64,000 nucleotides of DNA from an uncultured Candidatus Saccharibacteria bacterium. GTDB taxonomy: Bacteria; Patescibacteriota; Minisyncoccia; Phycocordibacterales; UBA918. The position numbers and the translations under genes are program-made. Position 1 is the first letter of the stretch. Each line of letters starts with the position of its first letter. This document shows positions 1 to 43,574 of the stretch, piece after piece. The notes under the pieces are model-generated. The model worked only from the letters and a program-made list of their open reading frames with translations, searched no databases and was not told where the DNA came from. Location of the stretch: the NCBI GenBank assembly GCA_964643955.1, contig CAZXUO010000002.1:44691-108690 (forward strand), given 5' to 3'.

Positions 1-816
1 ACATCGCCTTCAAACGTACTTGGTCTTGAAGCACAGGTTGAGACGGTCGATGATGTGCGCCTCTCGTGGCAGAACCCACGCGAAGCAGACTTCTCGCATG
101 TACGCATTCTTCGTTCGCCACTCTTCTATCCGAGCGATCCGTACGACGGCGCTCTTATATATGAAGGGAATGGAACAGAATTCTTCGACGAAGATGCGCT
201 CCGTAAAAATGATCGAGCCTATTACACAGTATTTGCCGTCGATGATAAGGGAAATATTTCTTCGGGTGCGATCGCGCTTGCGCGCCGTACTGGTGTACCA
301 CTTGAAGAGAATCGTGAGACAGCATCAACAACAATCGAGCTTTCGCTCGCAGACATCCAATTCATCCAAGATGGTCGAGTCATTTCTCCTGCAACTGTGG
401 AGGAAGATGCGTACTTTACGCTCGACAGTACACGTCCATTCACTATCCTCATTCCGTATGATGCGCTTCTTGAAAACCTCAAGACGGTCATGGTGACGCT
501 TGCACACCCGCAAGATAAGACGCAGTTGTTCTCATTCCTTTTGCGCATCAATAAAGAAAAGACCGCGTATGAAGCGCAGATTGCCCCGCTCGTGGATGAA
601 GGGTACTACCCAACAGGTATTACCGTAATCGACTATGCACTCAAAGAAATGGCAGATGTCCGCGCAACCATCGTCGTGTCGCGACCATCTGAAGATAGTG
701 TGCCTCAAGGAGTAGGAGGCTGGAGCCGCGGGAATTTCTTCTTTGTCATTGTGCTTATCTTGCTCCTCATACTCGGCTATTGGTTGATACGAAGAGATCA
801 GTATCGATATGCATAA
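1..816 (+). CDS. 5'-truncated gene continuing from upstream; fibronectin-III/Ig-like extracellular domain with C-terminal transmembrane anchor (FFFVIVLILLLILGYWLIRR)
   Basis: Frame 1 is open from base 1 to the stop at 816. Beta-rich sequence ends in a hydrophobic helix plus basic stop-transfer residues. Confidence 0.5.
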   Translation, partial: TSPSNVLGLEAQVETVDDVRLSWQNPREADFSHVRILRSPLFYPSDPYDGALIYEGNGTEFFDEDALRKNDRAYYTVFAVDDKGNISSGAIALARRTGVPLEENRETASTTIELSLADIQFIQDGRVISPATVEEDAYFTLDSTRPFTILIPYDALLENLKTVMVTLAHPQDKTQLFSFLLRINKEKTAYEAQIAPLVDEGYYPTGITVIDYALKEMADVRATIVVSRPSEDSVPQGVGGWSRGNFFFVIVLILLLILGYWLIRRDQYRYA

Positions 817-4948: not shown

Positions 4949-5771
4949 CACACACGAAGACGAGAATACAATTTCGTACATGGCGCTGCAGGTGATCGCA
5001 GAGCTTCGCGAATTTTTGCGTGTTATTCGCTCGTGGGTCTATCTGTGGTTTCTCTCGGCGTTCGTCATATTCTCACTCGGATTCAAGTGGCTTCTCTGGC
5101 GCGAGTACTCTATACCGGTACCGTCGTTTGAGGAAGTTTCGTTTGCAGCGCGCATCCTGATACATATGACGGAATTTCTTGTGCCGAGTGGTGTAACGCT
5201 CGTGGCGACCAATCCTTTTTCTGCGTTTGCAGCGCAAGTGCTCGTCTCAGCGCTCGCAGCACTCGTCGTGACATTTCCATTTCTTCTTTTGCGGGTGGTC
5301 GCGTATCTCTCTCCGGCACTCTATGCAAGCGAGCGTCGAGGACTCATGCTCGTACTCGGATTCGCATCAGTGCTTTTCGCAGGAGGGTGCACCTTCGGAT
5401 ATTTTATTGTGCTTCCAACCACGCTCCATTTCCTCTACGGATACGTGGGCGCACTCGGCGCGGTGCCGTTCTTTTCAGTGACCGAATTCATCGCGCTCGT
5501 GGTCTCATTTACCTTGGTCGCAGGTGTGTGTTTTCTCTTGCCGATCGTTATGGTCTCTGTGACCGCGCTCGGCATTATCCCGCATACGTTTTGGTGGCGA
5601 TCGTGGCGCAGTGCGCTTTTGCTTTTCCTTATTGCCTCTGCGATAATTACTCCAGACGGTAGTGGTGTAAGCATGCTCTTGCTCGCGTCACCGCTCTCGA
5701 TTTTATATGGCGTGGGCGCAGGCGTGAGTTCGTGGACGCGCGCGCGTGCAGACGTGCCGTTATCAGTCTAA
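4938..5771 (+). CDS. tatC: Sec-independent protein translocase TatC
   Basis: LQVIAELREFLRVI matches the TatC N-terminal HLxELRxRL signature and is followed by six predicted TM helices. The track start at 4893 is non-ATG; ATGs at 4938 or 4980 are possible. Confidence 0.8.
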   Translation: MEPNTHEDENTISYMALQVIAELREFLRVIRSWVYLWFLSAFVIFSLGFKWLLWREYSIPVPSFEEVSFAARILIHMTEFLVPSGVTLVATNPFSAFAAQVLVSALAALVVTFPFLLLRVVAYLSPALYASERRGLMLVLGFASVLFAGGCTFGYFIVLPTTLHFLYGYVGALGAVPFFSVTEFIALVVSFTLVAGVCFLLPIVMVSVTALGIIPHTFWWRSWRSALLLFLIASAIITPDGSGVSMLLLASPLSILYGVGAGVSSWTRARADVPLSV

Positions 5772-5783
5772 TGTTTCTATCAT

Positions 5784-6002
5784 ATGTTTGGTCTTGGACT
5801 TCCTGAAGTAATCATCATTGCACTTGCGGTCGCAATATTCTTTTTTGGCGGAAAGAAAATTGTCGAACTCTCACGTTCAATGGGACGGGTAAGTGGAGAA
5901 TTTAAGAAGGGGAAGATGGATATTGAACGGGAGCTCCGTGAGTCAGAGGGTGCGGTGATGCACGATGCGACGGTTGAAAAGACAACGACGGAATCAAAAT
6001 AG
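5784..6002 (+). CDS. tatA: Tat translocase subunit TatA/E
   Basis: MFGLGLPEVIIIALAVAIFFFGGKKIVELSRSMGRVSGEFKKG is the canonical TatA TM helix plus amphipathic helix. Confidence 0.8.
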   Translation: MFGLGLPEVIIIALAVAIFFFGGKKIVELSRSMGRVSGEFKKGKMDIERELRESEGAVMHDATVEKTTTESK

Positions 6003-6007
6003 CAGCT

Positions 6008-6295
6008 ATGTTCTTGAAGGCGTGGTTTAAAAAAGGTGGGCATACAAAAGATGAGCGCGAGACATCGCCTCGGGTTTTGAATATGCGCCGCCGCCGCCTC
6101 CTTCAATTTGGTGCGGTCGGCGGCGGCGCATTCCTCGTCGCGTGGTTCCTCCGCCCGCTGCTTTCGTTACTCAAAGAAGGTATCCCGTTTGAGAAAGAGA
6201 CTTTGTTCGAAAACTTTCGTGTGGTCGAAACGAATAAAGAACTCCAGTTTTACGACCGAAAATCGAACGAAGCGATTTTTATACTTGAGAAATAG
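6008..6295 (+). CDS. Small protein with twin-arginine signal-like motif (RRRRLLQFGAVGGGAFLVA); unknown function
   Basis: RR followed by a hydrophobic stretch sits immediately after tatA. The true start may be the internal Met at 6083. Confidence 0.4.
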   Translation: MFLKAWFKKGGHTKDERETSPRVLNMRRRRLLQFGAVGGGAFLVAWFLRPLLSLLKEGIPFEKETLFENFRVVETNKELQFYDRKSNEAIFILEK

Positions 6296-6298
6296 CGT

Positions 6299-7756
6299 AT
6301 GGCCATTCGCCTTTCCTCATCACGCATGGATGTGGGGGATAAGACGTTCCTCAAACCTGTCTTCAAAGATTATGGAGAAGTCCTCAATGATATGGGGCCT
6401 GGTGGCGGTACGCGTGATATCGATCTGACGCTTGGTAATGTCGTGACGGCAACCGTCTCTGGATCTACGACAACATTTACCTTTTCAAATCCATCTGCGT
6501 CTGGTACTGCGTGCAGCTTCACACTTGTGCTCACCAACGGCGGCTCACAGACGGTCAATTGGCCTGCTGCTGTTGAGTGGGTTGCAGGAGAAGCGCCGAC
6601 ATTGACGACCTCCGGTGTTGATATTTTGACGTTTGCGACGACCGACGCAGGTGCAACATGGATTGGGTTTTCTGGCGGCGGCGGTATCGCACACGATAGT
6701 ACGCTCTATGCATGGGGATTGGGTGGAAGCGGACAGCTCGGACAAGGCACCTCGGCGGTAGATCGTTCTTCTCCGGTTCAAGTTGGCTCGCTTGCAACAT
6801 GGGCTGAAGTTTCAGGAGGTATGTACCATGCGCTCGCATGTCGTGTTGATGGCACACTATGGGCATGGGGATCAAATGCAAACGGACGACTCGGCGATGG
6901 CACCACTACGAGTCGCTCTTCTCCGGTGCAGATCGGCTCACTTGCCACATGGAAAAAAGTTTCCGGCGGTGGCAATCATTCGATCGCTTTGAAATCAGAC
7001 GGCACACTGTGGGCATGGGGCCTCAATTATTCAGGTCAGCTTGCACAAGGCGATCTCACACTCCGTTCTTCACCGGTGCAGATCGGCTCACTTACGACGT
7101 GGATCGATATTGCTACAAGTGCGTATCATACGATGGCACTAAAGTCTGATAGTACGCTTTGGGTATGGGGATGGGGTGGTGCGGATGGTCGTCTTGGTGA
7201 TGGTACAACTGATGCGCGTTCTTCACCGGTGCAGATCGGCTCACTCGCAAATTGGAAATCGATCGCAACATCGTGGGATCATTCACTTGCTGTAAAAACT
7301 GACGGCACGCTCTGGGCGTGGGGCGATAATGCGCATGGACGCATTGGTGACGGTACGACGACGAACCGCTCTTCACCGGTGCAAATCGGATCATCAAATA
7401 CGTGGTCCGCGGCTTCTGGTGGGTACCATCATACGGTCGCATTGAAATCAGACGGCACACTGTGGGCGTGGGGGCGAGGTTCGTACGGACGTGTGGGCGA
7501 TGGCGCCTATACAAGTCGCTCTTCACCAGTGCAGATAGGCTCACTCACGAGTTGGGTTGCGATAAGCGCGGGCATGTACAGCTCACATGCGCTCCGTGCA
7601 GACGGCACTTTTTGGTCATGGGGAGGAGGCTATGGCGGTGCACTCGGCAACAATTCAATTACTGCAGTTGGATCTCCGGTACAAATCGGATCACTCACGA
7701 GTTGGAAGAAACTTTCTACGGGTCGAAGATCTACGTTTGGAATCCGACGGGTATAG
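6299..7756 (+). CDS. RCC1-repeat (beta-propeller) protein with conserved ~130-aa N-terminal beta-rich domain
   Basis: About seven repeats of GxLGxG..(N/D)RSSPVQ(V/I)GSL..W. The N-terminal domain (GNVVTATV..FTFSNP..TL.LTNGG..VNWP) is shared with the 7829 paralogue. Confidence 0.8.
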   Translation: MAIRLSSSRMDVGDKTFLKPVFKDYGEVLNDMGPGGGTRDIDLTLGNVVTATVSGSTTTFTFSNPSASGTACSFTLVLTNGGSQTVNWPAAVEWVAGEAPTLTTSGVDILTFATTDAGATWIGFSGGGGIAHDSTLYAWGLGGSGQLGQGTSAVDRSSPVQVGSLATWAEVSGGMYHALACRVDGTLWAWGSNANGRLGDGTTTSRSSPVQIGSLATWKKVSGGGNHSIALKSDGTLWAWGLNYSGQLAQGDLTLRSSPVQIGSLTTWIDIATSAYHTMALKSDSTLWVWGWGGADGRLGDGTTDARSSPVQIGSLANWKSIATSWDHSLAVKTDGTLWAWGDNAHGRIGDGTTTNRSSPVQIGSSNTWSAASGGYHHTVALKSDGTLWAWGRGSYGRVGDGAYTSRSSPVQIGSLTSWVAISAGMYSSHALRADGTFWSWGGGYGGALGNNSITAVGSPVQIGSLTSWKKLSTGRRSTFGIRRV

Positions 7757-7828
7757 TCCACGCTCCAAATTTTTTGTCCGTGGTATCATACAATTTACAT
7801 AGAGATTTTTCTCTTGGTGTACTAGTGT

Positions 7829-9283
7829 ATGGCCATTCGTCTTTCGTCATCGCGCATGGATATGAACGACAAGCCGCTCGAGCGGCCGGTCATTCGAGAT
7901 TATGGAGAAGCAGTGAATGCACTCGGTGGAGGGAGCGGTACGCGCGACATCAATCTCTCACTCGGCAATGTTGTCACGGCGACCGTCACCGGTACTACCA
8001 CCTTTACTTTTTCAAATCCGACGCCCGCGGGCACTGCGTGTACGTTTACCCTGATGCTCACCAACGGTGGTGCTCATACCGTCAATTGGCCTACGGCAGT
8101 GAAGTGGGCAAATACAGAAAATAATGTTGCGCCGACACTTAATAGTGCGGGGGTGGATGTACTCACTTTTTTAACAACGGATGTGGGGCTGACATGGTAT
8201 GGATTTTCAGGCACTGCGGTTGAAGATAATGACACCCTCTGGGCATGGGGTTTAAATAATGAGGGAAATCTAGGTGTGGGTGATACAGCTAATCGTTCTT
8301 CACCTGTACAAGTTGGTTCGCTGTTGACACGCTCAACAGCGAAAGCTGGCCTTGTGCACGCAACAACGCTTCGCTCAGACGGCACCCTCTGGACGTGGGG
8401 GAGAAATGATGAGGGTCAGCTCGGTCAAGGGGATGTGGCGGATAGATCCTCGCCTGTACAAATCGGTTCGCTTACGACATGGTCGCAAATTGCAACAGGA
8501 CAAACGCAGACACTTGCCATCCAGTCAGATGGCACGCTCTGGGCATGGGGGCGCAATGGACTTGGTCGTCTTGGTGACGGTACGACAACGAACCGCTCTT
8601 CACCGGTACAGATTGGCTCGCTTACGACGTGGTCAAAGGTAGCGACCGGATATGTTCATTCTGCTGCAATCCAGACAGATGGCACCTTGTGGGTCTGGGG
8701 TGAGGCAACCAGATTGGCAACGGATGTTGTGGGTAATCGCTCTTCACCGGTACAGATTGGCTCGCTTACGACGTGGTCAAAGGTAGCGACCGCCGTCAAT
8801 CATACATTGGCACTCAAAACAGACGGTACGCTCTGGGCGTGGGGAGTCGGTACGGTAGGTCAGCTTGGAGAAGGAACCAGTGCTGTTAATCGCTCTTCAC
8901 CTGTACAAGTCGGTTCGCTCACCACGTGGTCAACTATTGCCGGAGGAAATAATGTCTCTTTAGCATTAAAGTCCGATAATACCCTCTGGGCATGGGGAAG
9001 TAATTCAAGCGGGCAGTTAGGGCTTGGTGATACTGCAAATCGTTCTTCACCCGTACAAGTTGGTTCGCTTACAACATGGTCAGTAATAGCTCCTGGAGAT
9101 ACCCACGTGCTCGCTATCCAGTCAGACGGCACCCTCTGGGCGTGGGGAAATGGCGCAAGCGGTGGCCTTGGTCTTGGTGATACTGCAAATCGTTCTTCGC
9201 CTGTACAAGTTGGTTCACTCACGACGTGGCGTGCAGCTTCGGTCGGCACAACTTTCTCGGTTGCAAATAAGCGAGGTGCTTAG
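7829..9283 (+). CDS. RCC1-repeat protein paralogue (with N-terminal domain)
   Basis: About 70% identical to 6299..7756 in the N-domain, with the same RCC1 repeat periodicity. Confidence 0.8.
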   Translation: MAIRLSSSRMDMNDKPLERPVIRDYGEAVNALGGGSGTRDINLSLGNVVTATVTGTTTFTFSNPTPAGTACTFTLMLTNGGAHTVNWPTAVKWANTENNVAPTLNSAGVDVLTFLTTDVGLTWYGFSGTAVEDNDTLWAWGLNNEGNLGVGDTANRSSPVQVGSLLTRSTAKAGLVHATTLRSDGTLWTWGRNDEGQLGQGDVADRSSPVQIGSLTTWSQIATGQTQTLAIQSDGTLWAWGRNGLGRLGDGTTTNRSSPVQIGSLTTWSKVATGYVHSAAIQTDGTLWVWGEATRLATDVVGNRSSPVQIGSLTTWSKVATAVNHTLALKTDGTLWAWGVGTVGQLGEGTSAVNRSSPVQVGSLTTWSTIAGGNNVSLALKSDNTLWAWGSNSSGQLGLGDTANRSSPVQVGSLTTWSVIAPGDTHVLAIQSDGTLWAWGNGASGGLGLGDTANRSSPVQVGSLTTWRAASVGTTFSVANKRGA

Positions 9284-9326
9284 TTTTCAGATTTCTGTTT
9301 TCAAAAATAGTTTATAATTCTTTTGT

Positions 9327-10418
9327 ATGCCGCGTTTTCCAAAACCACGTGTAAACGGTACCCTCTGGATGTGGGGCAATGGTGCAAATGGTCGCCTTGG
9401 TATGGGTGATACGGTAAGTCACTCATCACCGGTACAAGTTGGTTCACTCAATACGTGGACGTTTGTTGCGCTAGGCGCTGAAAGCACATTTGGAATTCAA
9501 TCCAACGGTACCCTCTGGGCATGGGGGAATAATGTAAACGGACGACTCGGTGATGGTACTACGACGAGTCGCTCGTCGCCGGTACAAGTTGGTTCACTCA
9601 ATACGTGGAAGATGGTCGCTCCGGCAGAATTTCACACACTTGGAATAAGGACCGACGGTACGCTCTGGGCATGGGGCCGGGGCACATATGGAGTGCTTGG
9701 GCAAGCTACAAATAATAATAGCCAATCATCTCCGGTACAAGTCGGCTCACTCACGACCTGGGTGAATGCTTCGGTTGGAGAACAACATTCGCACGGGATA
9801 CGTTCGAACAGTGTGCTGTTTAGTTGGGGAGAAGGGGCGAATGGACGACTTGGCGGCGGTAATCAAACAGATCGTTCATCTCCCGTTCAAGTTGGTACAG
9901 GAACAATTTGGTCTCTTGTTTCAGGTACCAATCGACATTCACATGGCCTAACACATGATGGTCGATTGTTTTTCTGGGGATACAATGCAAACGGTTACGC
10001 GACTTCTGGAAATGGTGCTTACAACCAACGCTCATCTCCGGTGCAGGTTGGCTCACTTGTGGAGTGGATGCATGTCTCAAACGGAAATGGTCATTCACAT
10101 GCGATTCGTTCAAACGGCACACTGTGGTCATGGGGTCGTTATTACAATGGTTCACAAGGAACGAGTGATAACACAACGCGCAACTCTCCCGTACAAGTCG
10201 GCTCGCTCTCAACATGGAGTGATGTTTCTGCAGGAAAAGATCATAGTATCGGGTTGCGTGTAGATGGCGCGCTGTTTGGCTGGGGGGCAGCCGGAAGCGG
10301 TCAACTTGGACAAGGAAATACCACAGAATTTAACTCTCCTGTTCAAGTCGGCTCACTCACAACGTGGGTTCAGCCAGCAGCAGGTGGATCTCATTCTGCG
10401 GCACTTCGAAGAGGCTAG
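9327..10418 (+). CDS. RCC1-repeat protein paralogue lacking the N-terminal domain
   Basis: Only RCC1 repeats (RSSPVQVGSL..W). No obvious RBS, and a TATAAT 7 nt upstream suggests a leaderless start. Confidence 0.65.
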   Translation: MPRFPKPRVNGTLWMWGNGANGRLGMGDTVSHSSPVQVGSLNTWTFVALGAESTFGIQSNGTLWAWGNNVNGRLGDGTTTSRSSPVQVGSLNTWKMVAPAEFHTLGIRTDGTLWAWGRGTYGVLGQATNNNSQSSPVQVGSLTTWVNASVGEQHSHGIRSNSVLFSWGEGANGRLGGGNQTDRSSPVQVGTGTIWSLVSGTNRHSHGLTHDGRLFFWGYNANGYATSGNGAYNQRSSPVQVGSLVEWMHVSNGNGHSHAIRSNGTLWSWGRYYNGSQGTSDNTTRNSPVQVGSLSTWSDVSAGKDHSIGLRVDGALFGWGAAGSGQLGQGNTTEFNSPVQVGSLTTWVQPAAGGSHSAALRRG

Positions 10419-10420
10419 AT

Positions 10421-11170
10421 ATGCGTTTAGATATCGTTTTACGTACGCATGATGGAGGCGATGTGCATCCTGACACAGGAAGATTTTTATCAGTGCCAAA
10501 AAAAGAAATTGTAAAGAGAAGTGTGCGATCGCTCCATGAGTCATCAAAATTAGCGGCAGGAACAGATATCACTTTTCATATCATTGATGATCATTCGTCG
10601 AGCGAGACGGTTGATTTTCTAAATACCATTATTGAAGTAGAGCCGCTTTCCGGGACGGGCAACAATGCTTCATGGCTTCGTGCATTTGAACGTGCGCGGG
10701 ATAGCGAAGCTGATGCCGTGTATCTTGTTGAAGACGATTATCTTCATGCTCCTGAAGCACTCCGCGAAATGGTCTTTTTCTATCAGGATGCGCGCGAGAA
10801 AAGCAGAGGAAGGGAGATGGTGCTCTGTCCGTATGATGATTTTTTCAACTATGTACACGGACCTGATAAAACGGGATACGTCGTACCGGGACGTGAGCGG
10901 CACTGGCGCACAAATACATATACCGCTGGGACGTTTTTTATTTCTCCGAAGATTGTGCGTGAACATTGGGAAAAATTTGAGCGGCTTGCAACGCTCTATG
11001 AGACGCCGCAGGGTAAAGCTGAAAAAGTACATGAAGAGACGACGCTTGCGCGTATCTGGATGGAAGGATATGCAACACTCTTCACACCGTTACCATCGCT
11101 TGCGGTCCATCTCAATCAAAATATCCCGCCGCTTTTTGATTGGAAGACGTTGTGGGAGAAGTATGCTTGA
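10421..11170 (+). CDS. Glycosyltransferase, GT-A fold (GT2-like), DxD motif VEDDY
   Basis: The core (HWRTNTYTAGTFF..) is homologous to the N-terminal domain of the 23727..25145 gene. The track start at 10364 is non-ATG and overlaps the upstream gene, so it is trimmed to the ATG at 10421. Confidence 0.6.
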   Translation: MRLDIVLRTHDGGDVHPDTGRFLSVPKKEIVKRSVRSLHESSKLAAGTDITFHIIDDHSSSETVDFLNTIIEVEPLSGTGNNASWLRAFERARDSEADAVYLVEDDYLHAPEALREMVFFYQDAREKSRGREMVLCPYDDFFNYVHGPDKTGYVVPGRERHWRTNTYTAGTFFISPKIVREHWEKFERLATLYETPQGKAEKVHEETTLARIWMEGYATLFTPLPSLAVHLNQNIPPLFDWKTLWEKYA

Positions 11171-11179
11171 ATAGGGCGC

Positions 11180-11860
11180 ATGAAGACGCTCGTCCTCGCG
11201 ATCGCGATCGGAGACTACTACCAGAAGATGGGAGAAATAACGCACCCACTTATGCGCGCATATGCAGAGCGCGTCAGCGCTGATTTTATGGTGATTACGG
11301 AGAAGAAAATCTCACAGACATCGGCGCATTGGGAGAAGTTTCAGATACATGACTTGCTTGATACGTATGATCGAATTCTTTTTCTCGATACGGATATTAT
11401 TGTGCGCGGCGATTGTCCAAACCTTTTTGAGGCCGTACCGGATGATGCATTTGGTGCATTTGATGAATCACGCTATTACACCGATGCGTGCGAGCGTATG
11501 GAGCTCACGGCGCGGGAGTATGAGATGGAGGTGATGGAAGCATGGGATGGTCGATATTTTAATACGGGCGTGATGGTGATCTCGCGCGCGCATCAAAAAG
11601 TATTCCAAAAGCCGCCGCGAGAATTTGATAATTTTTATGAGCAGACCTACCTCAATCTTGTGTTTGTGCGAGAAGGTGTACGTATGTTCCCGCTCGATTT
11701 TCGTTTCAATAGAATGCATCCAATGAACGCACACACCGGTGAACCGCGTCTTTCTTCATATATTGTGCATTACGCGGGATATACTGCCGAGGAGCCTGAG
11801 ATGGTGTTTGATTATATTCGGGAGGATATAGAGCGCTGGATGAAGCGGGGCGTGCTCTAG
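11180..11860 (+). CDS. Nucleotide-sugar glycosyltransferase, GT-A fold (GT8/GT32-like), DTD motif
   Basis: LFLDTDIIV DxD motif with a Rossmann-like N-terminus. Confidence 0.5.
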   Translation: MKTLVLAIAIGDYYQKMGEITHPLMRAYAERVSADFMVITEKKISQTSAHWEKFQIHDLLDTYDRILFLDTDIIVRGDCPNLFEAVPDDAFGAFDESRYYTDACERMELTAREYEMEVMEAWDGRYFNTGVMVISRAHQKVFQKPPREFDNFYEQTYLNLVFVREGVRMFPLDFRFNRMHPMNAHTGEPRLSSYIVHYAGYTAEEPEMVFDYIREDIERWMKRGVL

Positions 11861-11907
11861 GCGGGCTGGTGGTCGGGTAGAATAGAAACCGGTATAATGC
11901 TCCCGCT

Positions 11908-13836
11908 ATGCAGAAAGACCTTCTTGACCAGCAGCTCGACGCGAATCTTCATGGAAATTTTGAAGAGGGATGGCGCATTGCACAAATTCTTGAGCATGAA
12001 CGGCCCAATGATAACCGAGCGGCATTTAATCGCGGCTGGCATTATCTTTCGCGTGGTGATTTGCAAAAAGGAATGGATCTCATGGATCGGGGGCGATATG
12101 AGGGTGTCTTTGGATCGCCGCCACTTAAGACGGAGAAGCCTATTTGGGATGGAAAAGTATCACTTGTTGGGAAGACGTTGCTGCTCCGTGGAGAGGGAGG
12201 ATTTGGTGACGAGATCATTCATGCGCGTTTTGCGAAGGGTTTTGCGGAGCGCGGAGCGCGGGTGATACTTGCGTGTTCTCCTGAACTTGCGTCGCTCTTA
12301 TCGCGCGTCGAGGGTGTGTCTGAGGTGGTATCGCGCGCGGTGCCGGAACATCTTCTTTTTGATTATTGGGTTCCGGCGATGAGTGCAGCACGTATTCTTG
12401 GTTATACTTTCGAGACGCTCCCGAATGCCCCCTATATTTTTGCGAAAGAAGAAAAGGTGCGTGAACATGCGCTTGCGGGTATTCATAAAGTAGGTATCCG
12501 CTGGTCAGGGAATCCGCGCTTTGAACACGAACAGCACCGACGTTTTCCTGCGGAGCCTTTGTTTGAACTACGACACGGGAAAGATGTGACGCTCTACTCG
12601 CTTCAGCGTGATCACGATCTTCGCGATGTGCCCGAAGGTATCATTGATCTCGAAAAAAAGATGGCGACGTGGGAGGACACGGCGGGTGTGATTGCGAATC
12701 TCGATCTCGTCATCACGTCGTGCACCTCGATCGCGCATCTTGCTGCTGCGATGGGAAAAGAAACGTGGGTCATTACGCCGGTGCTCCCGTACTATATTTG
12801 GGCACAGCCGGGTGAGCGGAGTGCGTGGTATAAGACTGTGCATCTCTTCAGGCAAGAAAGGTTTGGCGATTGGGAAGCGCCGCTTGTTGCAGTTGCGCGT
12901 GCATTTGAAGCACGCTTCGGAGTTGTGTTGCCAACTGAGCGTGAACACGTCCATACTGTTTCTCCTGCTGAATCGTCGCATGGACTCGTCGGCTCATCGG
13001 AAGAAAACGTCGTGCGTCCGCGTGCGCGTGTATCGGAACAGAAAAAGACGATTCATTTTGTATCAGGACTCCCGCGCTCTGGTTCGACGATGTTGATCTC
13101 TCTTCTTTCTCAAAATCCGCGCATACATGGTGCACCGATTTCAGGACTTGCAGGTATTTTTACCGGCATTTACGCAAATTGGGATAAAAATGAATTTCAT
13201 GTTGAGAGCCCCAATGAGACAGCAAAGCGTGCGGTGCTCGCTTCAGTACTCGACGCATATTATGCGCATATTGATAAGCTGATCATCCTTGATAAGGATC
13301 GGTCGTGGGTGTCGCGGATTGCGCTTCTTGAGGATATTTTAGAGCGCGAGGTGAAGATTATTTTACCGGTGCGACCGATCATCGAGATCCTTGCATCATT
13401 TGAGACATTGCGACTCAAGAACCCAACTGATCTTACGGGTGCAGATGAGGCGCTCGGACCGACTTCGACGATTCCGGGACGCGCTGAATATTTTATGAGT
13501 CCGAGCGGAACAATTGGTTTACCTTTCCATTCGATGAAAGATGCGGTGACGACGGGATACCTCGATCGACTTTTGTTTGTTGATTACAACAAACTCATGT
13601 CTGCGCCAAAAGCACAGCTCAAACGCATCTACGAGTTTCTTGAAGAGCCGTCATTTGAACACGATTTTCAAAATATCACTCGGCCTGGTGAGAGTAATCC
13701 AAAAATACATAAATTTCCTGGGCTTCATGACGTACGGCCGAAGTTTGAACGTATCTCCCGCAATCCGCGCTCGCTGCTTGGTGATGATGTGATCGATCGC
13801 TATGGGCAGCCGGATCCGTGGGCGCAGTGGACGTAA
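11908..13836 (+). CDS. Fusion protein: N-terminal GT9 (heptosyltransferase-family) glycosyltransferase domain plus C-terminal sulfotransferase (Sulfotransfer_3-like) domain
   Basis: GT9 signatures LLLRGEGGFGDEIIH and ITSCTSIAHLAAAMGKETWVITPV. Sulfotransferase 5'-PSB-like GLPRSGSTML plus a downstream VRPIIEILAS motif. Confidence 0.6.
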   Translation: MQKDLLDQQLDANLHGNFEEGWRIAQILEHERPNDNRAAFNRGWHYLSRGDLQKGMDLMDRGRYEGVFGSPPLKTEKPIWDGKVSLVGKTLLLRGEGGFGDEIIHARFAKGFAERGARVILACSPELASLLSRVEGVSEVVSRAVPEHLLFDYWVPAMSAARILGYTFETLPNAPYIFAKEEKVREHALAGIHKVGIRWSGNPRFEHEQHRRFPAEPLFELRHGKDVTLYSLQRDHDLRDVPEGIIDLEKKMATWEDTAGVIANLDLVITSCTSIAHLAAAMGKETWVITPVLPYYIWAQPGERSAWYKTVHLFRQERFGDWEAPLVAVARAFEARFGVVLPTEREHVHTVSPAESSHGLVGSSEENVVRPRARVSEQKKTIHFVSGLPRSGSTMLISLLSQNPRIHGAPISGLAGIFTGIYANWDKNEFHVESPNETAKRAVLASVLDAYYAHIDKLIILDKDRSWVSRIALLEDILEREVKIILPVRPIIEILASFETLRLKNPTDLTGADEALGPTSTIPGRAEYFMSPSGTIGLPFHSMKDAVTTGYLDRLLFVDYNKLMSAPKAQLKRIYEFLEEPSFEHDFQNITRPGESNPKIHKFPGLHDVRPKFERISRNPRSLLGDDVIDRYGQPDPWAQWT

Positions 13837-13845
13837 GTTCGTCCC

Positions 13846-13880
13846 CACGCCGCGACGCCAAAGGTGTTGCGGCGTTTTGC
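13846..13880 (+). terminator. Possible intrinsic terminator after the GT9-sulfotransferase gene
   Basis: cgccgc..gcggcg stem followed by TTTT. Confidence 0.35.
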
Positions 13881-13901
13881 TACCTGCTATAATTCCTCCA
13901 T

Positions 13902-15029
13902 ATGACGCTTGCGCGGCGAGTAATGATGGTGCTGAGAGAGGCGGCTGCGGTGCTCGATCCTGCACTTTGGTCGTGGGGGATGGGTAGCGTAGGTTCTTTG
14001 GGCGATGGTTCTACCACCAATCGTTCCTCTCCCGTCCAGGTTGGGACGTTGTCTGATTGGGTTATTCTTTCTTCAGGTGGAAGGAATTCATCAGAGGGAT
14101 GGAATCAGGCAATAAAATCAAACGGCACCCTCTGGGCATGGGGTGCCGGCCCTTTGGGTAATCTTGGGTTGGGTGACACGAATAATCGTTCCTCTCCCGT
14201 CCAGGTTGGTTCACTCACAACATGGAAGAGCGTTTCTGCGGGGGCTGCCCACTCATTTGGTATTCAAAGTAACGGCACCCTCTGGGCATGGGGCCTAAAT
14301 TCTACCGGCCAATTAGGTCAAATAAGTAACAATACTAATAGATCCTCTCCTGTTCAGATTGGTTCTTTAACAACATGGACTGCAGTTGCTGCAGGTGCGG
14401 CACACGGAGTTGCACTCCAATCAAATGGCACTCTTTGGACGTGGGGTCGTAATAATGAAGGTGAGCTTGGGCAAATTAGTAATACGACCAATCGTTCCTC
14501 TCCTGTCCAAGTTGGTTCACTTACTACATGGACTGCAGTTGCGGCTGCGTACACTCATTGCTTAGCTCTCCAATCAAATGGCACTCTTTGGACGTGGGGT
14601 GACAATAGGAACGGTCGTCTTGCGGACGGCTCTACCACCAATCGTTCCTCTCCCGTCCAAGTTGGTTCACTAACAACATGGTCAGGACTTGGACTAGGGA
14701 GCTCTCTCTATCATTCCGTTGCTCTCCAATCAAATGGCACTCTTTGGACGTGGGGGACGGGGTCTTCTGGTCGTCTCGGTGACGGCGCAGCCTCCAACCG
14801 CTCCTCTCCCGTCCAAGTTGGTAGTCTAACAAGTTGGGTTATGGCTTCGGGAGGTGTGCAAATGAGTGCTGTCAGGGCAGATGGGACTATTTGGACGTGG
14901 GGTCCAAACGGAACGGGGGCTTTAGGCGATGGCTCAACCATCGACCGCTCCTCTCCCGTCCAAGTTGGTAGTCTGACTAGCTGGACAAATACTTCCACGA
15001 GCGGTACCCACACACTCGGACTACGGTAG
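13902..15029 (+). CDS. RCC1-repeat protein paralogue (no N-terminal domain)
   Basis: Eight RSSPVQVGSLT.W repeats. Upstream TGCTATAAT extended -10. Confidence 0.75.
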   Translation: MTLARRVMMVLREAAAVLDPALWSWGMGSVGSLGDGSTTNRSSPVQVGTLSDWVILSSGGRNSSEGWNQAIKSNGTLWAWGAGPLGNLGLGDTNNRSSPVQVGSLTTWKSVSAGAAHSFGIQSNGTLWAWGLNSTGQLGQISNNTNRSSPVQIGSLTTWTAVAAGAAHGVALQSNGTLWTWGRNNEGELGQISNTTNRSSPVQVGSLTTWTAVAAAYTHCLALQSNGTLWTWGDNRNGRLADGSTTNRSSPVQVGSLTTWSGLGLGSSLYHSVALQSNGTLWTWGTGSSGRLGDGAASNRSSPVQVGSLTSWVMASGGVQMSAVRADGTIWTWGPNGTGALGDGSTIDRSSPVQVGSLTSWTNTSTSGTHTLGLR

Positions 15030-15082
15030 TTTGTGGATTCTCATCAACGTCTCTAGACCGGAGAAAGGTATACTATATATAC

Positions 15083-16126
15083 ATGCAGCCAGAGCAGAAA
15101 AAAGGTTTTTTGAATTTTCTCTTCTATAACAACGCAGTTCCGATCGTATTTACGATTTTCTTTTTGAGTGTGGGTGCCGCTGCTGCGTCAACCGACGTGG
15201 TGCAAGAGGCGGTGATACAAGAAACAGAGACGGTGCAGTCGATTGATAATGAATACATCAGATTTATTGATCTTGACACATTTAAGATTTACCTCGTCAT
15301 CGGTTCGATTGTTGAAGACGAGTATACGTATCTGGTGAAGTATTCGTATAATTCCATCGGCATTGAGGATTACGTATGGAAGCCGATCACCGCGGTGAAG
15401 ACGCTCTCAGTTTCAAAAGAAGCACTCGGGGATCGCGACCTTGGCCTCTATGTCGCCGAACAACTTGGTCAGGTGGTTGATTTTGAAATGCAGTATCTTC
15501 GCGATGCACAAAAGGTAGAGCGCGAGCTCGGCGCATCTAAAAAGGTGGTCGTAAAAGAATACGCAGGACTTATCGGAAAGATGTTTGATGCAGAGGCGCA
15601 AGTATTTACGGGATACGAACCGGTGATTGAAGAAAAAGTTGAGGCTGTTCTTGATCCACAAGTGACTGCCGGTGGTATTGGCTCAACGTCGCTCGGCGAA
15701 GCTGATCGTATTGCACTCGCGGAAGAACAGCGTCGCATAGACGCAGAGCGTCACGAAGCATGGCTCAAAGAACAAGAAAAGATTCGTGAAGAGGCAGAGC
15801 AGCGTCCTCCGGTAGAAGAACAGGTGCGCGATATTCTCGAGGGTCAAGAAGAAGATCCGACTGAAGGAGAGACTGGTACTTCAACAAGCACGACAACTCC
15901 ACCAGAAGATGATGAGCCTGATACCTCAACGACAACTCCTGATGGTGGAGGCGGGGGAACTCCCGAACCGGAACCAGAGCCAACACCTGAGCCAGAGCCG
16001 ACACCCGAACCTCCTGTAGAAGAACCGGAACCGGAACCAACTCCCGAGCCTGAACCAGAGCCGGAAGAAACTTCTGAAGAGCCAGTCGAGGAACCAGCAC
16101 CAGAAACTGAAACTCCTGCTGTGTAA
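15083..16126 (+). CDS. Membrane-anchored protein with acidic coiled region and C-terminal (TPEPEP)n low-complexity tail
   Basis: N-terminal TM helix and a Pro/Glu/Thr-rich repeat. Not a reverse-strand artefact, because an RBS (GGAGAAAGG) precedes it. Confidence 0.5.
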   Translation: MQPEQKKGFLNFLFYNNAVPIVFTIFFLSVGAAAASTDVVQEAVIQETETVQSIDNEYIRFIDLDTFKIYLVIGSIVEDEYTYLVKYSYNSIGIEDYVWKPITAVKTLSVSKEALGDRDLGLYVAEQLGQVVDFEMQYLRDAQKVERELGASKKVVVKEYAGLIGKMFDAEAQVFTGYEPVIEEKVEAVLDPQVTAGGIGSTSLGEADRIALAEEQRRIDAERHEAWLKEQEKIREEAEQRPPVEEQVRDILEGQEEDPTEGETGTSTSTTTPPEDDEPDTSTTTPDGGGGGTPEPEPEPTPEPEPTPEPPVEEPEPEPTPEPEPEPEETSEEPVEEPAPETETPAV

Positions 16127-16145
16127 ATTGGGATAAGTGAACGGT

Positions 16146-16180
16146 ATAACGCACCTCGGTGCGTTATACTTTTTGTATGA
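16146..16180 (+). terminator. Intrinsic terminator overlapping the gap start
   Basis: ggtataacgcacc-tcg-ggtgcgttatac hairpin followed by TTTTTG. Confidence 0.5.
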
Positions 16181-41787: not shown

Positions 41788-41807
41788 TTCCACCACATTT
41801 TTCTATA

Positions 41808-41835
41808 TTGACAAATCCCCATTTTCGTGTATAAT
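41808..41835 (+). promoter_or_regulatory. Consensus sigma70 promoter TTGACA-N16-TATAAT at the left edge of the GC-rich island
   Basis: ctatattgacaaatccccattttcgtgtataat. Confidence 0.55.
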
Positions 41836-41892
41836 CTCGCCCAGACCGATCGTTGACACGATCAGGTAAATCAACAGAAAGAGAGGCTTCAA

Positions 41893-42792: not shown

Positions 42793-42793
42793 C

Positions 42794-43471: not shown

Positions 43472-43510
43472 TCGTGAAGAAAAGAAGGGTGCCTACGGGT
43501 GCCGAAACTT

Positions 43511-43544
43511 GCGCGGGGACCCCTAGGGGAACCCGCGCTTTTAT
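43511..43544 (+). terminator. Intrinsic terminator between island genes 2 and 3
   Basis: gcgcggggacccctaggggaacccgcgctttt. Confidence 0.6.
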
Positions 43545-43545
43545 A

Positions 43546-43574
43546 TTGACAATTTTATACTGATATGCTATAAT
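43546..43574 (+). promoter_or_regulatory. Consensus sigma70 promoter TTGACA-N17-TGcTATAAT, followed by a ~105-nt leader
   Basis: tatattgacaattttatactgatatgctataat. Confidence 0.55.

What the first reader, a model, noticed from the sequence alone, without database searches (positions are those of the whole stretch)
6299..15029. Expansion of four RCC1-repeat (beta-propeller) paralogues enclosing a glycosylation and sulfation gene cluster
Four RCC1-like genes (6299, 7829, 9327, 13902) are arranged in tandem. Two of them carry a conserved ~130-aa N-terminal beta-rich domain (GNVVTATV..FTFSNP..TLxLTNGG..VNWP..PTL..VD(I/V)LTF) and are ~70% identical, indicating recent duplication. Between paralogues 3 and 4 sit two GT-A glycosyltransferases and a GT9-sulfotransferase fusion. 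The arrangement suggests the RCC1 proteins are either substrates or scaffolds of a glycan or sulfo-glycan modification pathway. The N-terminal domain is unassigned.
Basis: partly seen in the sequence, partly recalled or inferred. Interest (0 to 1): 0.55.

Follow-up and report, generated by a model that had tools for sequence, protein, structure and literature searches.

The report
Phage-like RCC1 propeller modification cassette
An ultra-small (CPR) bacterium carries, in a conserved surface-protein locus, the cellular version of a gene cassette that is very common in aquatic phages: a tail-fibre end domain, seven-bladed RCC1 propellers, and sugar- and sulfate-adding enzymes. The cassette probably builds modified binding heads, but nobody appears to have studied it.

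Summary
The genes are real. There are four 7-bladed RCC1 propeller genes (6299, 7829, 9327, 13902). Between the third and fourth lie a GT2-like gene, a GT8 gene and a fusion of a GT9-like GT-B enzyme to a PAPS-type sulfotransferase.

Two details in the finding are wrong. Paralogues A and B are 56% identical overall (N-domain 67%, propeller 54%), so the duplication is old. The N-domain is also not unassigned. It belongs to a very large family (10,832 cluster representatives) that forms the extreme C-terminus of phage tail-fibre proteins. It matches PHROG tail-fibre families at E about 1e-14, and its homologues carry Pfam PF26209.

The main result is that the linkage is strongly conserved. The order fibre-X, RCC1, GT9-like, sulfotransferase, GT2-like recurs in cultured cyanophages (BUCT-ZZ01, S-SRM01). 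It also holds in 78 of the 80 best IMG/VR loci, and 79 of those 80 carry RCC1 next to the GT9-like gene.

In divergent Paceibacteria the cassette sits in a syntenic chromosomal locus, after a giant fibre gene, TatC, TatA and a small twin-arginine protein. Fusion of X to RCC1 is the CPR variant.

Most likely model (inferred, not shown): X docks an RCC1 binding head, and the enzymes glycosylate and sulfate it. Paralogues B, C and D turn over quickly between close genomes.

I rate it a new variant of a known kind, of moderate to high interest.

The parts
6299..7756 (+). RCC1_A. Residues 1-128 (nt 6299-6682) are the X domain, a phage tail-fibre terminal beta-sandwich. They are followed by a 7-bladed RCC1 propeller.
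7829..9283 (+). RCC1_B. X domain (nt 7829-8212) plus a 7-bladed RCC1 propeller.
   Evidence: Only 66% identical to its positional counterpart in L008.
9327..10418 (+). RCC1_C. A 7-bladed propeller without an X domain.
   Evidence: 50% identical to its positional counterpart in L008. It falls outside the A/B/D clade in the NJ tree.
10421..11170 (+). GT2-like GT-A glycosyltransferase. The likely start is the ATG at 10421; the mechanical ORF starts at 10364.
   Evidence: PF00535 at 23.1 bits, just under the cut-off. 6 of 8 family members hit PF00535. The profile hits the GT2 structures TarP, DPMS and SpsA. The gene is called at this start on L015 and L008.
11180..11860 (+). GT8-family GT-A glycosyltransferase.
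   Evidence: PF01501, E 1.5e-11, 44.8 bits against a cut-off of 24.3. phrog_28746, E 8e-10.
11908..13836 (+). Fusion protein. Four TPR-like helices plus a GT9-like GT-B domain (aa 1-350, nt 11908-12957), a linker, and a PAPS-type sulfotransferase (aa 376-642, nt 13033-13836).
   Evidence: Pfam Sulfotransfer_3/_1. phrog_27463, E 5e-57. AF2 model with pLDDT 89.3. Foldseek: GT9 3tov 7e-7, TibC 2e-5, WaaF, WaaC, then OGT/SPY. PDB profile search: best sulfotransferase match is TPST1/2, E 5e-5. More than 1200 homologues, and full-length fusions are common in Patescibacteria.
13902..15029 (+). RCC1_D. A 7-bladed propeller without an X domain.
   Evidence: 61% identical to its positional counterpart in L008.
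809..4948 (+). Context: a giant fibre-like protein with an N-terminal hydrophobic segment that looks like a Sec signal or anchor by eye. It is the conserved first gene of the syntenic CPR locus.
   Evidence: PHROG tail-fibre families 9942 and 18345. Weak NCBIfam Bdello_MAT_N hit, 8e-5, below the cut-off. Its C-terminal ~130 aa are conserved in L002, L009, L010, L013, L043 and L056.
4893..5771 (+). Context: TatC.
   Evidence: PF00902, E 2.4e-40. TatC lies directly upstream of the X gene in 10 CPR loci.
5784..6002 (+). Context: TatA (72 aa).
   Evidence: The translation closely matches the L008 gene annotated PF02416 TatA_B_E.
6008..6295 (+). Context: a small 95-aa protein with a twin-arginine signal-like N-terminus (RRRRLLQFGAVGGGAF). 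It always sits between TatA and the X gene.
   Evidence: Sequences from the window, L002, L008, L009, L010 and L013. Faint precomputed TAT_signal hit on the L009 homologue.
15083..16126 (+). Context: a membrane-anchored protein with a conserved N-terminal ~180 aa and a Pro/Glu-rich tail. It closes the block.
   Evidence: Homologous to the N-part of the 'Bact_surface_Ig-like' proteins of L002 and L011 and to the last gene of the L010 and L013 loci.
16143..16170 (+). The strongest terminator-like hairpin of the region (12-bp stem plus a T run). It lies after the block and before GAPDH.

Best explanation
Window 6299-15029 is the chromosomal, CPR-bacterial version of a modular cassette that is widespread in aquatic tailed phages.

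**The phage form.** In phages the order is: fibre protein ending in domain X, then one or more 7-bladed RCC1 propellers, then a GT9-like GT-B glycosyltransferase, then a sulfotransferase, then a GT2-like GT-A enzyme.

**The form in this window.** X is fused to the N-terminus of two of the four propellers. The GT9-like enzyme and the sulfotransferase are fused into one protein. A GT8 gene has been added.

**Proposed working (inferred).**
- X is a docking or oligomerisation module that couples a propeller to a fibre or anchor.
- The RCC1 propellers are the distal ligand-binding heads. Several diverged paralogues provide alternative specificities.
- The soluble enzymes modify the X/RCC1 proteins in the cytoplasm. 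The GT9-like and GT-A enzymes add sugar, and the sulfotransferase then adds sulfate, before assembly or export.
- In this bacterium the block is part of a conserved, probably co-transcribed surface locus: giant fibre, TatC, TatA, small twin-arginine protein, X/RCC1, enzymes, membrane-anchored protein. The product is therefore most likely a cell-surface attachment device rather than a virion part.

**Shown here:** domain identities, folds, gene order, and the conservation of linkage.

**Inferred:** the binding role, the protein acceptor, and the export route.
For: 1. **Domain identities.**
2. **X is a phage fibre-end domain.**
   - tblastn hits lie in annotated tail-fibre genes of 158 phage records.
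   - X forms the last ~120 aa of the 1168-aa tail fibre of Synechococcus phage BUCT-ZZ01.
   - 148 of the 150 best representatives carry it at their C-terminus, and 10,832 representatives match in all.
   - All 35 X-bearing ORFs in the viral loci end with it.
3. **Linkage in cultured phages.**
   - BUCT-ZZ01: fibre-X, a 166-aa ORF, RCC1, then a GT9-like protein 44% identical to the window's (E 4e-82).
   - S-SRM01 and Marine virus AG-345-E08: RCC1, RCC1, GT9-like, RCC1, sulfotransferase, GT.
   - L088 is a phage contig with terminase and portal genes. It has a 984-aa fibre ending in X, then RCC1, then a fusion with the two domains in reverse order, sulfotransferase then GT9-like.
4. **Linkage in IMG/VR.** There are 434 confirmed GT9-like loci. 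Of the best 80, 79 have RCC1, 55 have the sulfotransferase immediately downstream, 33 have X upstream, and 78 keep the same order.
5. **Split versus fused genes.** X and RCC1 are adjacent separate genes in L010, L013 and the phages. They are fused in the window, L008, L011, L004 and L066. GT9-like and sulfotransferase are separate, fused, or fused in reverse order. Both patterns argue that the partners act together.
6. **Synteny in CPR relatives.** The locus is syntenic in Paceibacteria whose TatC is only 34-47% identical (L002, L009, L010, L013, L043, L056). No phage hallmark genes are present, and housekeeping genes flank it.
7. **Fast turnover between close genomes.** Between the window and L008, housekeeping proteins are 95-99% identical. 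RCC1_B, C and D are 66, 50 and 61% identical, the two GT-A enzymes 70 and 76%, and the giant fibre 67%. The C slot holds a different lineage in the two genomes. This pattern is typical of receptor-binding or surface-variable genes.
8. **The acceptor is unlikely to be LPS.** The GT9-like fold is closest to heptosyltransferases, including the protein heptosyltransferase TibC. CPR bacteria are generally reported to lack LPS (my own knowledge), so an LPS-core acceptor is unlikely here.
9. **Protein-modifying neighbours.** L010 and L013 add a TPR-GT41 (OGT/HMW1C-type, protein-modifying family) gene directly upstream of X.
Against: - No modification has been observed. The acceptor could be a glycan or a lipid.
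- None of the four RCC1 proteins has a recognisable Sec or twin-arginine signal when the N-termini are read by eye. Surface display in the bacterium therefore needs an unproven route.
- Most X-bearing genes lack RCC1. About 70 of the 80 GTDB loci have X without it, so X is not specific to this cassette.
- The sulfotransferase is only marginally closer to protein-tyrosine sulfotransferases (E 5e-5) than to small-molecule SULTs (E 3e-4).
- The 80 viral loci are the best of 434 and are related to one another, so 79/80 is not 79 independent events. Some IMG/VR contigs may be misclassified cellular DNA.
Confidence: 0.45

Rival explanations
1. Glycan-pathway reading. The GT9-like, sulfotransferase and GT-A enzymes build a sulfated oligo- or polysaccharide, or a glycolipid, of the cell envelope. 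In phages they would remodel the host envelope. The RCC1 propellers would be lectin-like binders or scaffolds for that glycan, not its acceptors.
For: - GT9, GT2 and GT8 families mostly act on LPS, polysaccharide or glycolipid acceptors (family knowledge).
- Related loci carry nucleotide-sugar epimerases and dehydratases and several methyltransferases, as polysaccharide loci do (L011, S-SRM01).
- The sulfotransferase is not clearly of the protein-tyrosine type.
Against: - None of the genes identified in the window block is a flippase, polymerase, initiating (priming) glycosyltransferase or ABC exporter.
- CPR bacteria lack LPS (my own knowledge).
- The RCC1 to GT9-like adjacency is near-obligate and keeps its order even in small phage contigs. 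That is hard to explain if RCC1 is only an optional binder.
- TPR-like helices precede the GT-B domain. A GT41-type protein glycosyltransferase is present in L010 and L013.
Confidence: 0.25
2. Prophage remnant or phage cargo. The block would be a decaying or recently acquired piece of a CPR phage with no cellular role.
For: - X, the sulfotransferase domain, GT8 and the giant protein all hit PHROG families.
- Viral homologues are almost as close (45-55% for the GT9-like half) as other CPR homologues (52-59%).
- Some genes turn over quickly.
Against: - Among the window proteins scanned against Pfam, none is an integrase, terminase, portal or capsid protein.
- The one tRNA gene lies 15 kb away.
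- The same locus lies between the same housekeeping neighbours (TatC upstream; GAPDH, RpiB, Rpe and Tkt downstream) in L002 and L008. The same internal order is kept in distant Paceibacteria.
- All ORFs are intact, and RCC1_A and the fusion are 93% and 88% conserved against L008.
- GC content is not aberrant.
Confidence: 0.08
3. Assembly-factor reading. The RCC1 propeller would be a chaperone or enzyme-recruiting scaffold that binds X and presents the fibre (or X itself) to the GT9-like and sulfotransferase enzymes. The modified product would be the fibre, not the propeller.
For: - Genes immediately downstream of phage tail-fibre genes often encode fibre assembly factors (general phage knowledge).
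- X precedes RCC1 wherever both are present, in every locus but L139, where the whole block is inverted.
- X carries a nearly invariant D-Y-G-E motif.
Against: - Two to four diverged paralogues per locus, in the window and in several phages, suit specificity determinants better than a chaperone.
- The Tyr of the DY motif is replaced in the L010 X protein, and the preceding Asp in those of L009 and L013.
- Fusing a chaperone to its client is unusual.
Confidence: 0.12

Closest known systems
Branched or modular phage receptor-binding complexes: CBA120 TSP4 N-terminal modules, phage KP1 long tail fibre proximal subunit, Acinetobacter phage Solidus gp83 tailspike
   Different: The similarity is moderate and at fold level only. 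X is its own sequence family (PF26209-type, PHROG 9017/7760). It sits at the C-terminal end of phage fibres rather than in the N-terminal part, and here it is followed by an RCC1 propeller.
Adhesin plus dedicated GT9-like protein heptosyltransferase: TibC/TibA and Aah/AIDA-I, the BAHT family (PMC4358343)
   Same: A soluble GT-B enzyme with the heptosyltransferase fold (Foldseek 2e-5 to TibC) is encoded next to a repeat-built binding protein. The pairing is strongly conserved.
   Different: BAHT hallmarks are missing. There is no N-terminal beta-barrel (four helices instead) and no Cys-rich iron finger (the N-half has two Cys). The neighbouring protein is a beta-propeller, not an autotransporter beta-helix. 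The enzyme is fused to, or followed by, a sulfotransferase. Transfer to protein is not shown.
Virion protein glycosylation by phage-encoded glycosyltransferases in mycobacteriophages (Freeman et al. 2023, PMC10527164, as cited in PMC12801897 and PMC12619734)
   Same: Phage-encoded glycosyltransferases sit beside structural genes. The proposed role is modification of the phage's own structural proteins.
   Different: The enzyme families and targets differ. No sulfotransferase or RCC1 protein is involved there, as far as I know. I know that paper only from its citation and my own knowledge; I did not read it here.
PAPS-dependent protein-tyrosine sulfotransferases (TPST1/2; bacterial RaxST)
   Same: The sulfotransferase half has a 5'-PSB-type motif (GLPRSGST). 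Its best solved-structure matches are TPST1/2 (E 5e-5).
   Different: The margin over small-molecule SULTs (E 3e-4) is small. No acceptor is known. A carbohydrate acceptor is equally possible.
Bacterial and eukaryotic RCC1-like seven-bladed propellers (RCC1, BLIP-II, COG5184 'alpha-tubulin suppressor-like' surface proteins)
   Same: Seven RCC1 repeats and strong Pfam matches. Thousands of bacterial homologues exist, many with surface-sorting domains.
   Different: No link to Ran or nucleotide exchange is expected. These proteins are single propellers with a phage fibre-end domain, encoded in a modification cassette.
Bdellovibrio mosaic adhesive trimer (MAT) fibres (NCBIfam NF053851)
   Same: The neighbouring 1379-aa protein gives a weak hit to the MAT N-terminal model (8e-5) and to phage tail-fibre PHROGs. 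The suggested theme is a bacterium that lives on other cells using phage-like fibres.
   Different: The hit is far below the curated cut-off (22.5 against 60 bits). The protein lies outside the finding, and no functional data exist.

Membership tests
RCC1 repeat / RCC1-like domain (PF00415, PF25390) | About seven tandem ~50-aa repeats forming a propeller, with Pfam scores above the gathering cut-off | tested here: met
   All four proteins score PF00415 at 194-239 bits (cut-off 21.7) with 7 stretches, and PF25390 at 212-287 bits (cut-off 150). Each has seven SPVQ[VI]G motifs at ~50-aa spacing.
PF26209 Phage_phiTE_241_C / PHROG tail-fibre families 9017 and 7760 (domain X) | Significant profile match of the domain | tested here: inconclusive
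   The local Pfam-A copy gave no hit at E <= 1. PHROG 9017, 7760 and 24774 match at E 1e-14. Homologues P0153 and the L011 genes carry precomputed PF26209 hits, some marked weak.
PF26209-type domain X | Position at the extreme C-terminus of a fibre-like protein | tested here: not met
   In the window X is N-terminal and followed by RCC1. In 148 of 150 representatives and in all 35 viral ORFs it is C-terminal.
Glycosyltransferase family 9 (heptosyltransferase, PF01075) | Pfam match above the gathering score | tested here: not met
   Only a partial hit: E 0.018, 14.8 bits against a cut-off of 22, covering aa 258-285.
Glycosyltransferase family 9 (heptosyltransferase) | GT-B fold closest to GT9 structures, with the N-terminal G-D motif and the C-terminal xHLAAAxG motif | tested here: met
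   Foldseek top hits are 3tov (7e-7), TibC, WaaF and WaaC. G100-D101 and H277...G283 are invariant in the family alignment. The assignment of these motifs to GT9 rests on my own knowledge.
Bacterial autotransporter heptosyltransferases (BAHT: TibC, Aah) | N-terminal beta-barrel, beta-hairpin thumb and Cys-rich iron-finger motif (PMC4358343) | tested here: not met
   The model starts with four helices (H5-14, 18-31, 36-48, 52-65), not a barrel. The N-half has only two Cys (sequence).
BAHT | Transfers heptose to Ser residues of an adhesin | not testable with these tools
   Needs biochemistry.
PAPS-dependent sulfotransferases (PF13469, PF00685) | Pfam match above the cut-off and a 5'-phosphosulfate-binding loop | tested here: met
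   PF13469 at 42.6 bits (cut-off 27) and PF00685 at 37.3 bits (cut-off 22). The motif GLPRSGST lies at aa ~388-395. phrog_27463 matches at 5e-57.
Protein-tyrosine sulfotransferases (TPST/RaxST type) | Specific similarity to TPST over other sulfotransferases, and a protein Tyr acceptor | tested here: inconclusive
   The best PDB profile hits are TPST1/2 at E 5e-5 against SULT1C2 at 3e-4. The acceptor is unknown. The candidate DY motif in X is not conserved in L009, L010 and L013.
Glycosyltransferase family 8 (PF01501) | Pfam match above the cut-off | tested here: met
   44.8 bits against a cut-off of 24.3, E 1.5e-11.
Glycosyltransferase family 2 (PF00535) | Pfam match above the cut-off, with GT-A DxD-type motifs | tested here: inconclusive
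   The window protein scores 23.1 bits against a cut-off of 23.3. 6 of 8 family members hit, best 3e-9. The profile hits the GT2 structures 6h1j, 5mlz and 1h7l. D105-D106 and D139-D140 are invariant.
Prophage / integrated phage | Phage hallmark genes (integrase, terminase, portal, capsid) and attachment-site features nearby | tested here: not met
   None among the window proteins scanned. The locus is syntenic between housekeeping genes in relatives.
Known anti-phage defence systems (PADLOC) | Match to any PADLOC model | tested here: not met
   No hits for nine proteins of the block.
Tat substrates | Twin-arginine signal peptide on the RCC1 proteins | tested here: not met
   By eye, the N-termini of A-D lack an RR motif followed by a hydrophobic region. 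RCC1_D has an RR but a charged following segment. Only the neighbouring 95-aa protein has such a signal. No signal-peptide predictor was available.

The most novel reading that the evidence does not exclude
Phages and host-dependent CPR bacteria may share a previously unrecognised class of receptor-binding device. It would be an RCC1 beta-propeller head, docked through the fibre-end domain X. Dedicated enzymes (GT9-like, GT-A and sulfotransferase) would glycosylate and then sulfate it in the cytoplasm. In Paceibacteria the folded, modified propeller would reach the cell surface by hitch-hiking through the adjacent TatAC translocon on the small twin-arginine protein encoded just upstream. The diverging paralogues would set which host cells the bacterium, or the phage, can attach to.
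Probability: 0.15. Interest if true: 0.8.

Novelty: new variant of a known kind. Interest (0 to 1): 0.6.

Why it matters
- **Possible role in attachment.** How CPR/Patescibacteria recognise and attach to other cells is largely unknown, as is how many aquatic phages recognise their hosts. This cassette is abundant: 434 confirmed viral loci in IMG/VR and more than 1200 homologues of the fusion protein. It is conserved in gene order across very different genomes, and I found no description of it in the searchable literature.
- **New biology if the model holds.** It would add RCC1 propellers to the catalogue of receptor-binding modules. It would also introduce sulfation, and GT9-type protein glycosylation, as a maturation step of such modules.
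- **Shared parts.** It would give a concrete example of the same attachment hardware being used by phages and by ultra-small bacteria.
- **Directly testable.** Two cultured cyanophages carry the cassette. One of them, BUCT-ZZ01, is recorded as infecting Synechococcus elongatus PCC 7942, a genetically tractable host.

Tried and rejected
- **Recent duplication of A and B:** rejected (54-56% identity).
- **Prophage origin of the block:** largely rejected (no hallmark genes, conserved synteny).
- **Known defence system:** no PADLOC hit.
- **Non-coding features:** Rfam and tRNA scans found only one tRNA-Thr at 30238, unrelated to the block.
- **Sequence search of X against PDB:** only chance-level hits, including an adenovirus fibre knob at E 0.35. 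I did not pursue these.
- **Tyrosine sulfation of the near-invariant D-Y-G-E motif in X:** attractive, but the motif is not kept in the CPR X proteins. The Tyr is lost in L010 and the Asp in L009 and L013. I kept this only as a minor idea.
- **TatC linkage in Saccharibacteria loci (L050, L079, L082):** on inspection of L079, TatC is 3.4 kb away with unrelated genes between. The Tat-X linkage is therefore claimed only for Paceibacteria-type loci.
- **PDB sequence searches for the GT2-like and GT8 single sequences:** nothing found.
- **Literature:** searches for RCC1 with cyanophage, CPR, tail fibre or receptor-binding protein, and the S-SRM01 genome paper, gave no description of the cassette.
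- **Source record:** The affiliation 'Patescibacteria/Paceibacteria-like' rests on the closest syntenic genomes.

Full report
**1. Observation**

ORFs lie on the + strand at 6299-7756 (485 aa, RCC1_A), 7829-9283 (484 aa, B), 9327-10418 (363 aa, C) and 13902-15029 (375 aa, D). All four hit Pfam RCC1 and the RCC1-like domain far above the curated cut-offs, with seven repeats each. Each has seven SPVQ[VI]G motifs about 50 aa apart. The DNA shows the corresponding 150-nt period, with blade copies 60-78% identical.

A and B share an N-terminal segment of about 128 aa. They are 56% identical overall, 67% in that segment and 54% in the propeller.

Between C and D lie three enzyme genes:
- A GT2-like gene. 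Its likely start is 10421. PF00535 scores 23.1 bits against a cut-off of 23.3, but 6 of 8 family members hit PF00535 and the family profile finds the GT2 structures TarP, DPMS and SpsA.
- A GT8 gene (PF01501, E 1.5e-11).
- A 642-aa protein whose C-half is a PAPS-type sulfotransferase (PF13469 and PF00685).

The N-half of the 642-aa protein gave only a sub-threshold GT9 hit by sequence. An AlphaFold2 model of it (pLDDT 89.3) shows four TPR-like helices followed by a GT-B domain. Its best PDB neighbours are GT9 enzymes: 3tov at 7e-7, the protein heptosyltransferase TibC at 2e-5, WaaF and WaaC. The TPR-GT41 enzymes OGT and SPY follow.

**2. Setting**

The window is a bacterial chromosome segment. 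It encodes PheT, GyrB, ThrRS, DnaE, SMC, RF, RNase R, GAPDH, RpiB, Rpe and a split transketolase. The fusion protein is identical to a protein on a 161,874-bp NCBI contig. The closest syntenic genomes are labelled Candidatus Pacebacteria, Paceibacter, Parcubacteria or Patescibacteria. I therefore treat the organism as a Paceibacteria-type CPR bacterium, which is an inference.

All genes from 809 to 16126 are co-oriented with short gaps. The only strong terminator-like hairpin lies at 16143-16170, just before GAPDH.

**3. The N-domain (called X here)**

The local Pfam copy found nothing. PHROGs gave tail-fibre families 9017, 7760 and 24774 at E about 1e-14, always matching the C-terminal end of those profiles.

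A tblastn search found the domain in 158 phage records. Where the gene under the match is named, it is mostly annotated as a tail fibre; many others are 'hypothetical protein'. In Synechococcus phage BUCT-ZZ01 it forms the last ~120 residues of a 1168-aa tail fibre.

The word-indexed search returned more than 1000 proteins that are 60-74% identical. The 120 best listed are 117-235 aa long, and in those I aligned the domain ends the protein while the N-termini vary freely. The exhaustive representative search found 10,832 cluster representatives at E <= 1e-3. In 148 of the best 150 the match ends at the C-terminus. Homologues carry the precomputed Pfam family PF26209 'Phage_phiTE_241_C'.

The AF2 model (pLDDT 81.7, all-beta) is moderately similar to several phage proteins:

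X is therefore a conserved phage fibre-end module. That is not met, because the family is known but uncharacterised.

**4. Linkage in CPR relatives**

- **L008** (fusion 88% identical) has the same gene order as the window, plus one extra methyltransferase.
- **L010 and L013/L014** (TatC only 34-35% identical) have: giant fibre, TatC, TatA, small twin-arginine protein, TPR-GT41, X as a separate 125-130-aa gene, a multi-propeller RCC1 (1090 or 728 aa), the GT9-like-sulfotransferase fusion, three GT2-like genes, and a homologue of the window's 15083-16126 protein.
- **L009** has giant fibre, TatC, TatA, small twin-arginine protein, X, then the fusion.
- **L002** has X, a 284-aa gene and a different sulfotransferase at the same place, between TatC and GAPDH.
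- **L011/L012** combine two X-RCC1 fusions, a free X, a free RCC1, the fusion, a second GT9-like gene, methyltransferases, GT2, an Ig-like protein and a giant protein.
- **L004 and L066** carry three tandem X-RCC1 genes.

TatC lies directly upstream of X in ten CPR loci.

**5. Linkage in phages**

- **BUCT-ZZ01:** fibre-X, a 166-aa ORF, a 700-aa RCC1 protein, then a 571-aa protein 44% identical (E 4e-82) to the GT9-like half.
- **S-SRM01 and the single-virus genome AG-345-E08:** RCC1, RCC1, GT9-like, RCC1, sulfotransferase, then further GTs, beside a putative tail fibre.
- **L088:** this contig carries terminase and portal genes, a 984-aa protein ending in X, an RCC1 gene, and a fusion in the reverse domain order, sulfotransferase then GT9-like.
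- **Two Planctomycetota contigs (L024, L033):** fibre-X, RCC1, GT9-like, GT2-like.

Scanning IMG/VR with the GT9-like profile confirmed 434 loci. Of the best 80, 79 have an RCC1 gene, 55 have the sulfotransferase immediately downstream, 33 have X upstream and 16 have the GT2-like gene downstream. Seventy-eight keep the order X, RCC1, GT9-like, sulfotransferase, GT2-like.

In viral loci X is never fused to RCC1, and the next RCC1 gene starts 34-700 nt after it. The X-RCC1 fusion occurs only in CPR-type contigs.

Two caveats apply. The 80 loci are related to one another, and IMG/VR may contain some cellular contigs. The cultured phages and L088 nevertheless anchor the result.

**6. Evolution**

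Between the window and L008, housekeeping proteins are 95-99% identical. TatC is 91%, RCC1_A 93%, the fusion 88% and the closing membrane protein 92%. In contrast, RCC1_B, C and D are 66, 50 and 61% identical, the GT2-like and GT8 enzymes 70 and 76%, and the giant fibre 67%.

In a rough NJ tree the window's A, B and D group with L008's four propellers, while the window's C groups elsewhere. The C slot has therefore been replaced. Several phage loci also hold two to four diverged paralogues. The pattern is old tandem duplication with fast turnover of some copies, as expected for specificity determinants.

**7. Mechanism**

Shown: domain identities, folds, gene order, and conservation of linkage. 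Natural split and fused forms exist for X with RCC1 and for GT9-like with sulfotransferase, the latter in both orders.

Inferred:
- X and RCC1 form one physical unit. X couples a propeller to a fibre or anchor, and the propellers are binding heads.
- The enzymes act with or on RCC1/X, because the GT9-like gene is almost never found without RCC1.
- The acceptor is more likely a protein than LPS. The reasons are that CPR bacteria lack LPS (my own knowledge), the enzyme carries TPR-like helices, its fold neighbours include the adhesin-modifying TibC, and two relatives add a GT41-type gene.

Open points:
- None of the RCC1 proteins shows an export signal by eye.
- The sulfotransferase acceptor is unknown (TPST1/2 at E 5e-5 against SULT at 3e-4).
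- The candidate DY site in X is not conserved.
- The conserved neighbourhood of TatAC and a small twin-arginine protein suggests Tat hitch-hiking of the folded propeller. This is speculation.

**8. Comparison with known systems**

The cassette works most like an adhesin encoded with its dedicated glycosyltransferase (TibC/TibA, Aah/AIDA-I; PMC4358343), and like phage-encoded virion glycosylation (PMC10527164, cited but not read here).

It is not a BAHT member. The N-terminal beta-barrel and the iron finger that define that family are absent. X resembles phage fibre and spike modules only at fold level. There is no PADLOC hit. I found no paper that describes the cassette, or RCC1 proteins in CPR bacteria.

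**9. Verdict**

The interpretation that the RCC1 genes belong with the glyco-sulfation genes is supported by strong conservation of linkage. The substrate-versus-scaffold question is open.

It is a new variant of a known kind: a receptor-binding or adhesin module with dedicated modification enzymes. It is abundant, apparently undescribed, and testable in cultured cyanophages. Interest is 0.6.

Noticed in passing
window 809-4948 (+): A 1379-aa fibre-like protein with an N-terminal hydrophobic signal or anchor and repeated 'GIGTTSP'-type motifs. It hits PHROG tail-fibre families 9942 and 18345, and weakly hits NCBIfam Bdello_MAT_N (Bdellovibrio mosaic adhesive trimer). Its last ~130 aa are conserved in the giant first gene of six related CPR loci. 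It is only 67% identical to its counterpart in the close relative L008.
   Followed up: partly
window 4893-6295 (+): TatC 4893-5771, TatA 5784-6002, 95-aa ORF 6008-6295: TatC, TatA and a small protein with a twin-arginine signal-like N-terminus (RRRRLLQFGAVGGGAF) directly precede the X/RCC1 genes. The same trio precedes X in L002, L008, L009, L010 and L013. TatC also directly precedes X in L035, L041, L043 and L056, with the small protein detected in L043 and L056 but not in L035 or L041 (TatA was not searched there). This may be a dedicated Tat substrate or anchor for the locus.
   Followed up: partly
window 15083-16126 (+) and 16143-16170: A 347-aa protein with an N-terminal membrane segment, a conserved ~180-aa domain and a long Pro/Glu/Thr-rich tail closes the block. 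Its homologues in L002 and L011 carry a 'Bact_surface_Ig-like' domain. A 12-bp-stem terminator-like hairpin follows it.
   Followed up: partly
L088 11348-13153: In a phage contig with terminase and portal genes, the sulfotransferase and the GT9-like domain are fused in the opposite order to the window (sulfotransferase first).
   Followed up: partly
L013 7385-7762 and 7775-9961: The free X gene and the following RCC1 gene are in the same reading frame, separated by one stop codon and four codons. A single tblastn alignment to RCC1_A runs across the stop. In L010 the two genes are in different frames, so I do not propose systematic read-through.
   Followed up: partly
L010 4822-6360; L013 5798-7342: A TPR-GT41 (OGT/HMW1C-type) glycosyltransferase gene sits directly upstream of X in two Paceibacteria loci. 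It is absent from the window.
   Followed up: no
L008 9361-10014: The close relative has an extra 217-aa SAM-methyltransferase gene between the GT8 gene and the fusion that the window lacks. L011 has several methyltransferases next to the fusion.
   Followed up: no
IMG/VR loci such as L102, L103, L108, L114, L136, L137; BUCT-ZZ01 L001 5634-6134: In many phages a gap of about 560 nt lies between X and RCC1. In BUCT-ZZ01 this gap holds a 166-aa hypothetical gene, which may be a fibre assembly factor. It has no counterpart in the window.
   Followed up: no
L079 8594-14122 (Saccharimonadales MAG): Between GrpE and DnaK lie a 402-aa fibre-like protein, a 158-aa X protein, a 416-aa fibre-like protein sharing the same N-terminal 40 aa as the X protein, and an 839-aa protein. 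No RCC1 or enzymes are present. Tail-fibre-like clusters therefore also occur in Saccharibacteria chromosomes.
   Followed up: partly
window 41800-44400: An island with 62% G+C, against about 51% elsewhere. Its ORFs have no Pfam hit, and several overlap on both strands. Three plausible + strand ORFs begin with Sec-like, twin-arginine-like (MGRRSFIRLSGAAL) and lipoprotein-like signals. It may be foreign DNA or an assembly chimera.
   Followed up: partly
window 55-816 (+): A 253-aa ORF with a C-terminal membrane segment and no Pfam or PHROG hit lies just upstream of, and slightly overlaps, the giant fibre gene.
   Followed up: no
L004 and L066: Two contigs from different sources share near-identical X-RCC1 genes in the propeller tree: an ENA metagenome scaffold and a 'Candidatus Adlerbacteria' MAG. 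Each has three tandem X-RCC1 genes next to a Y1 transposase (L004).
   Followed up: no
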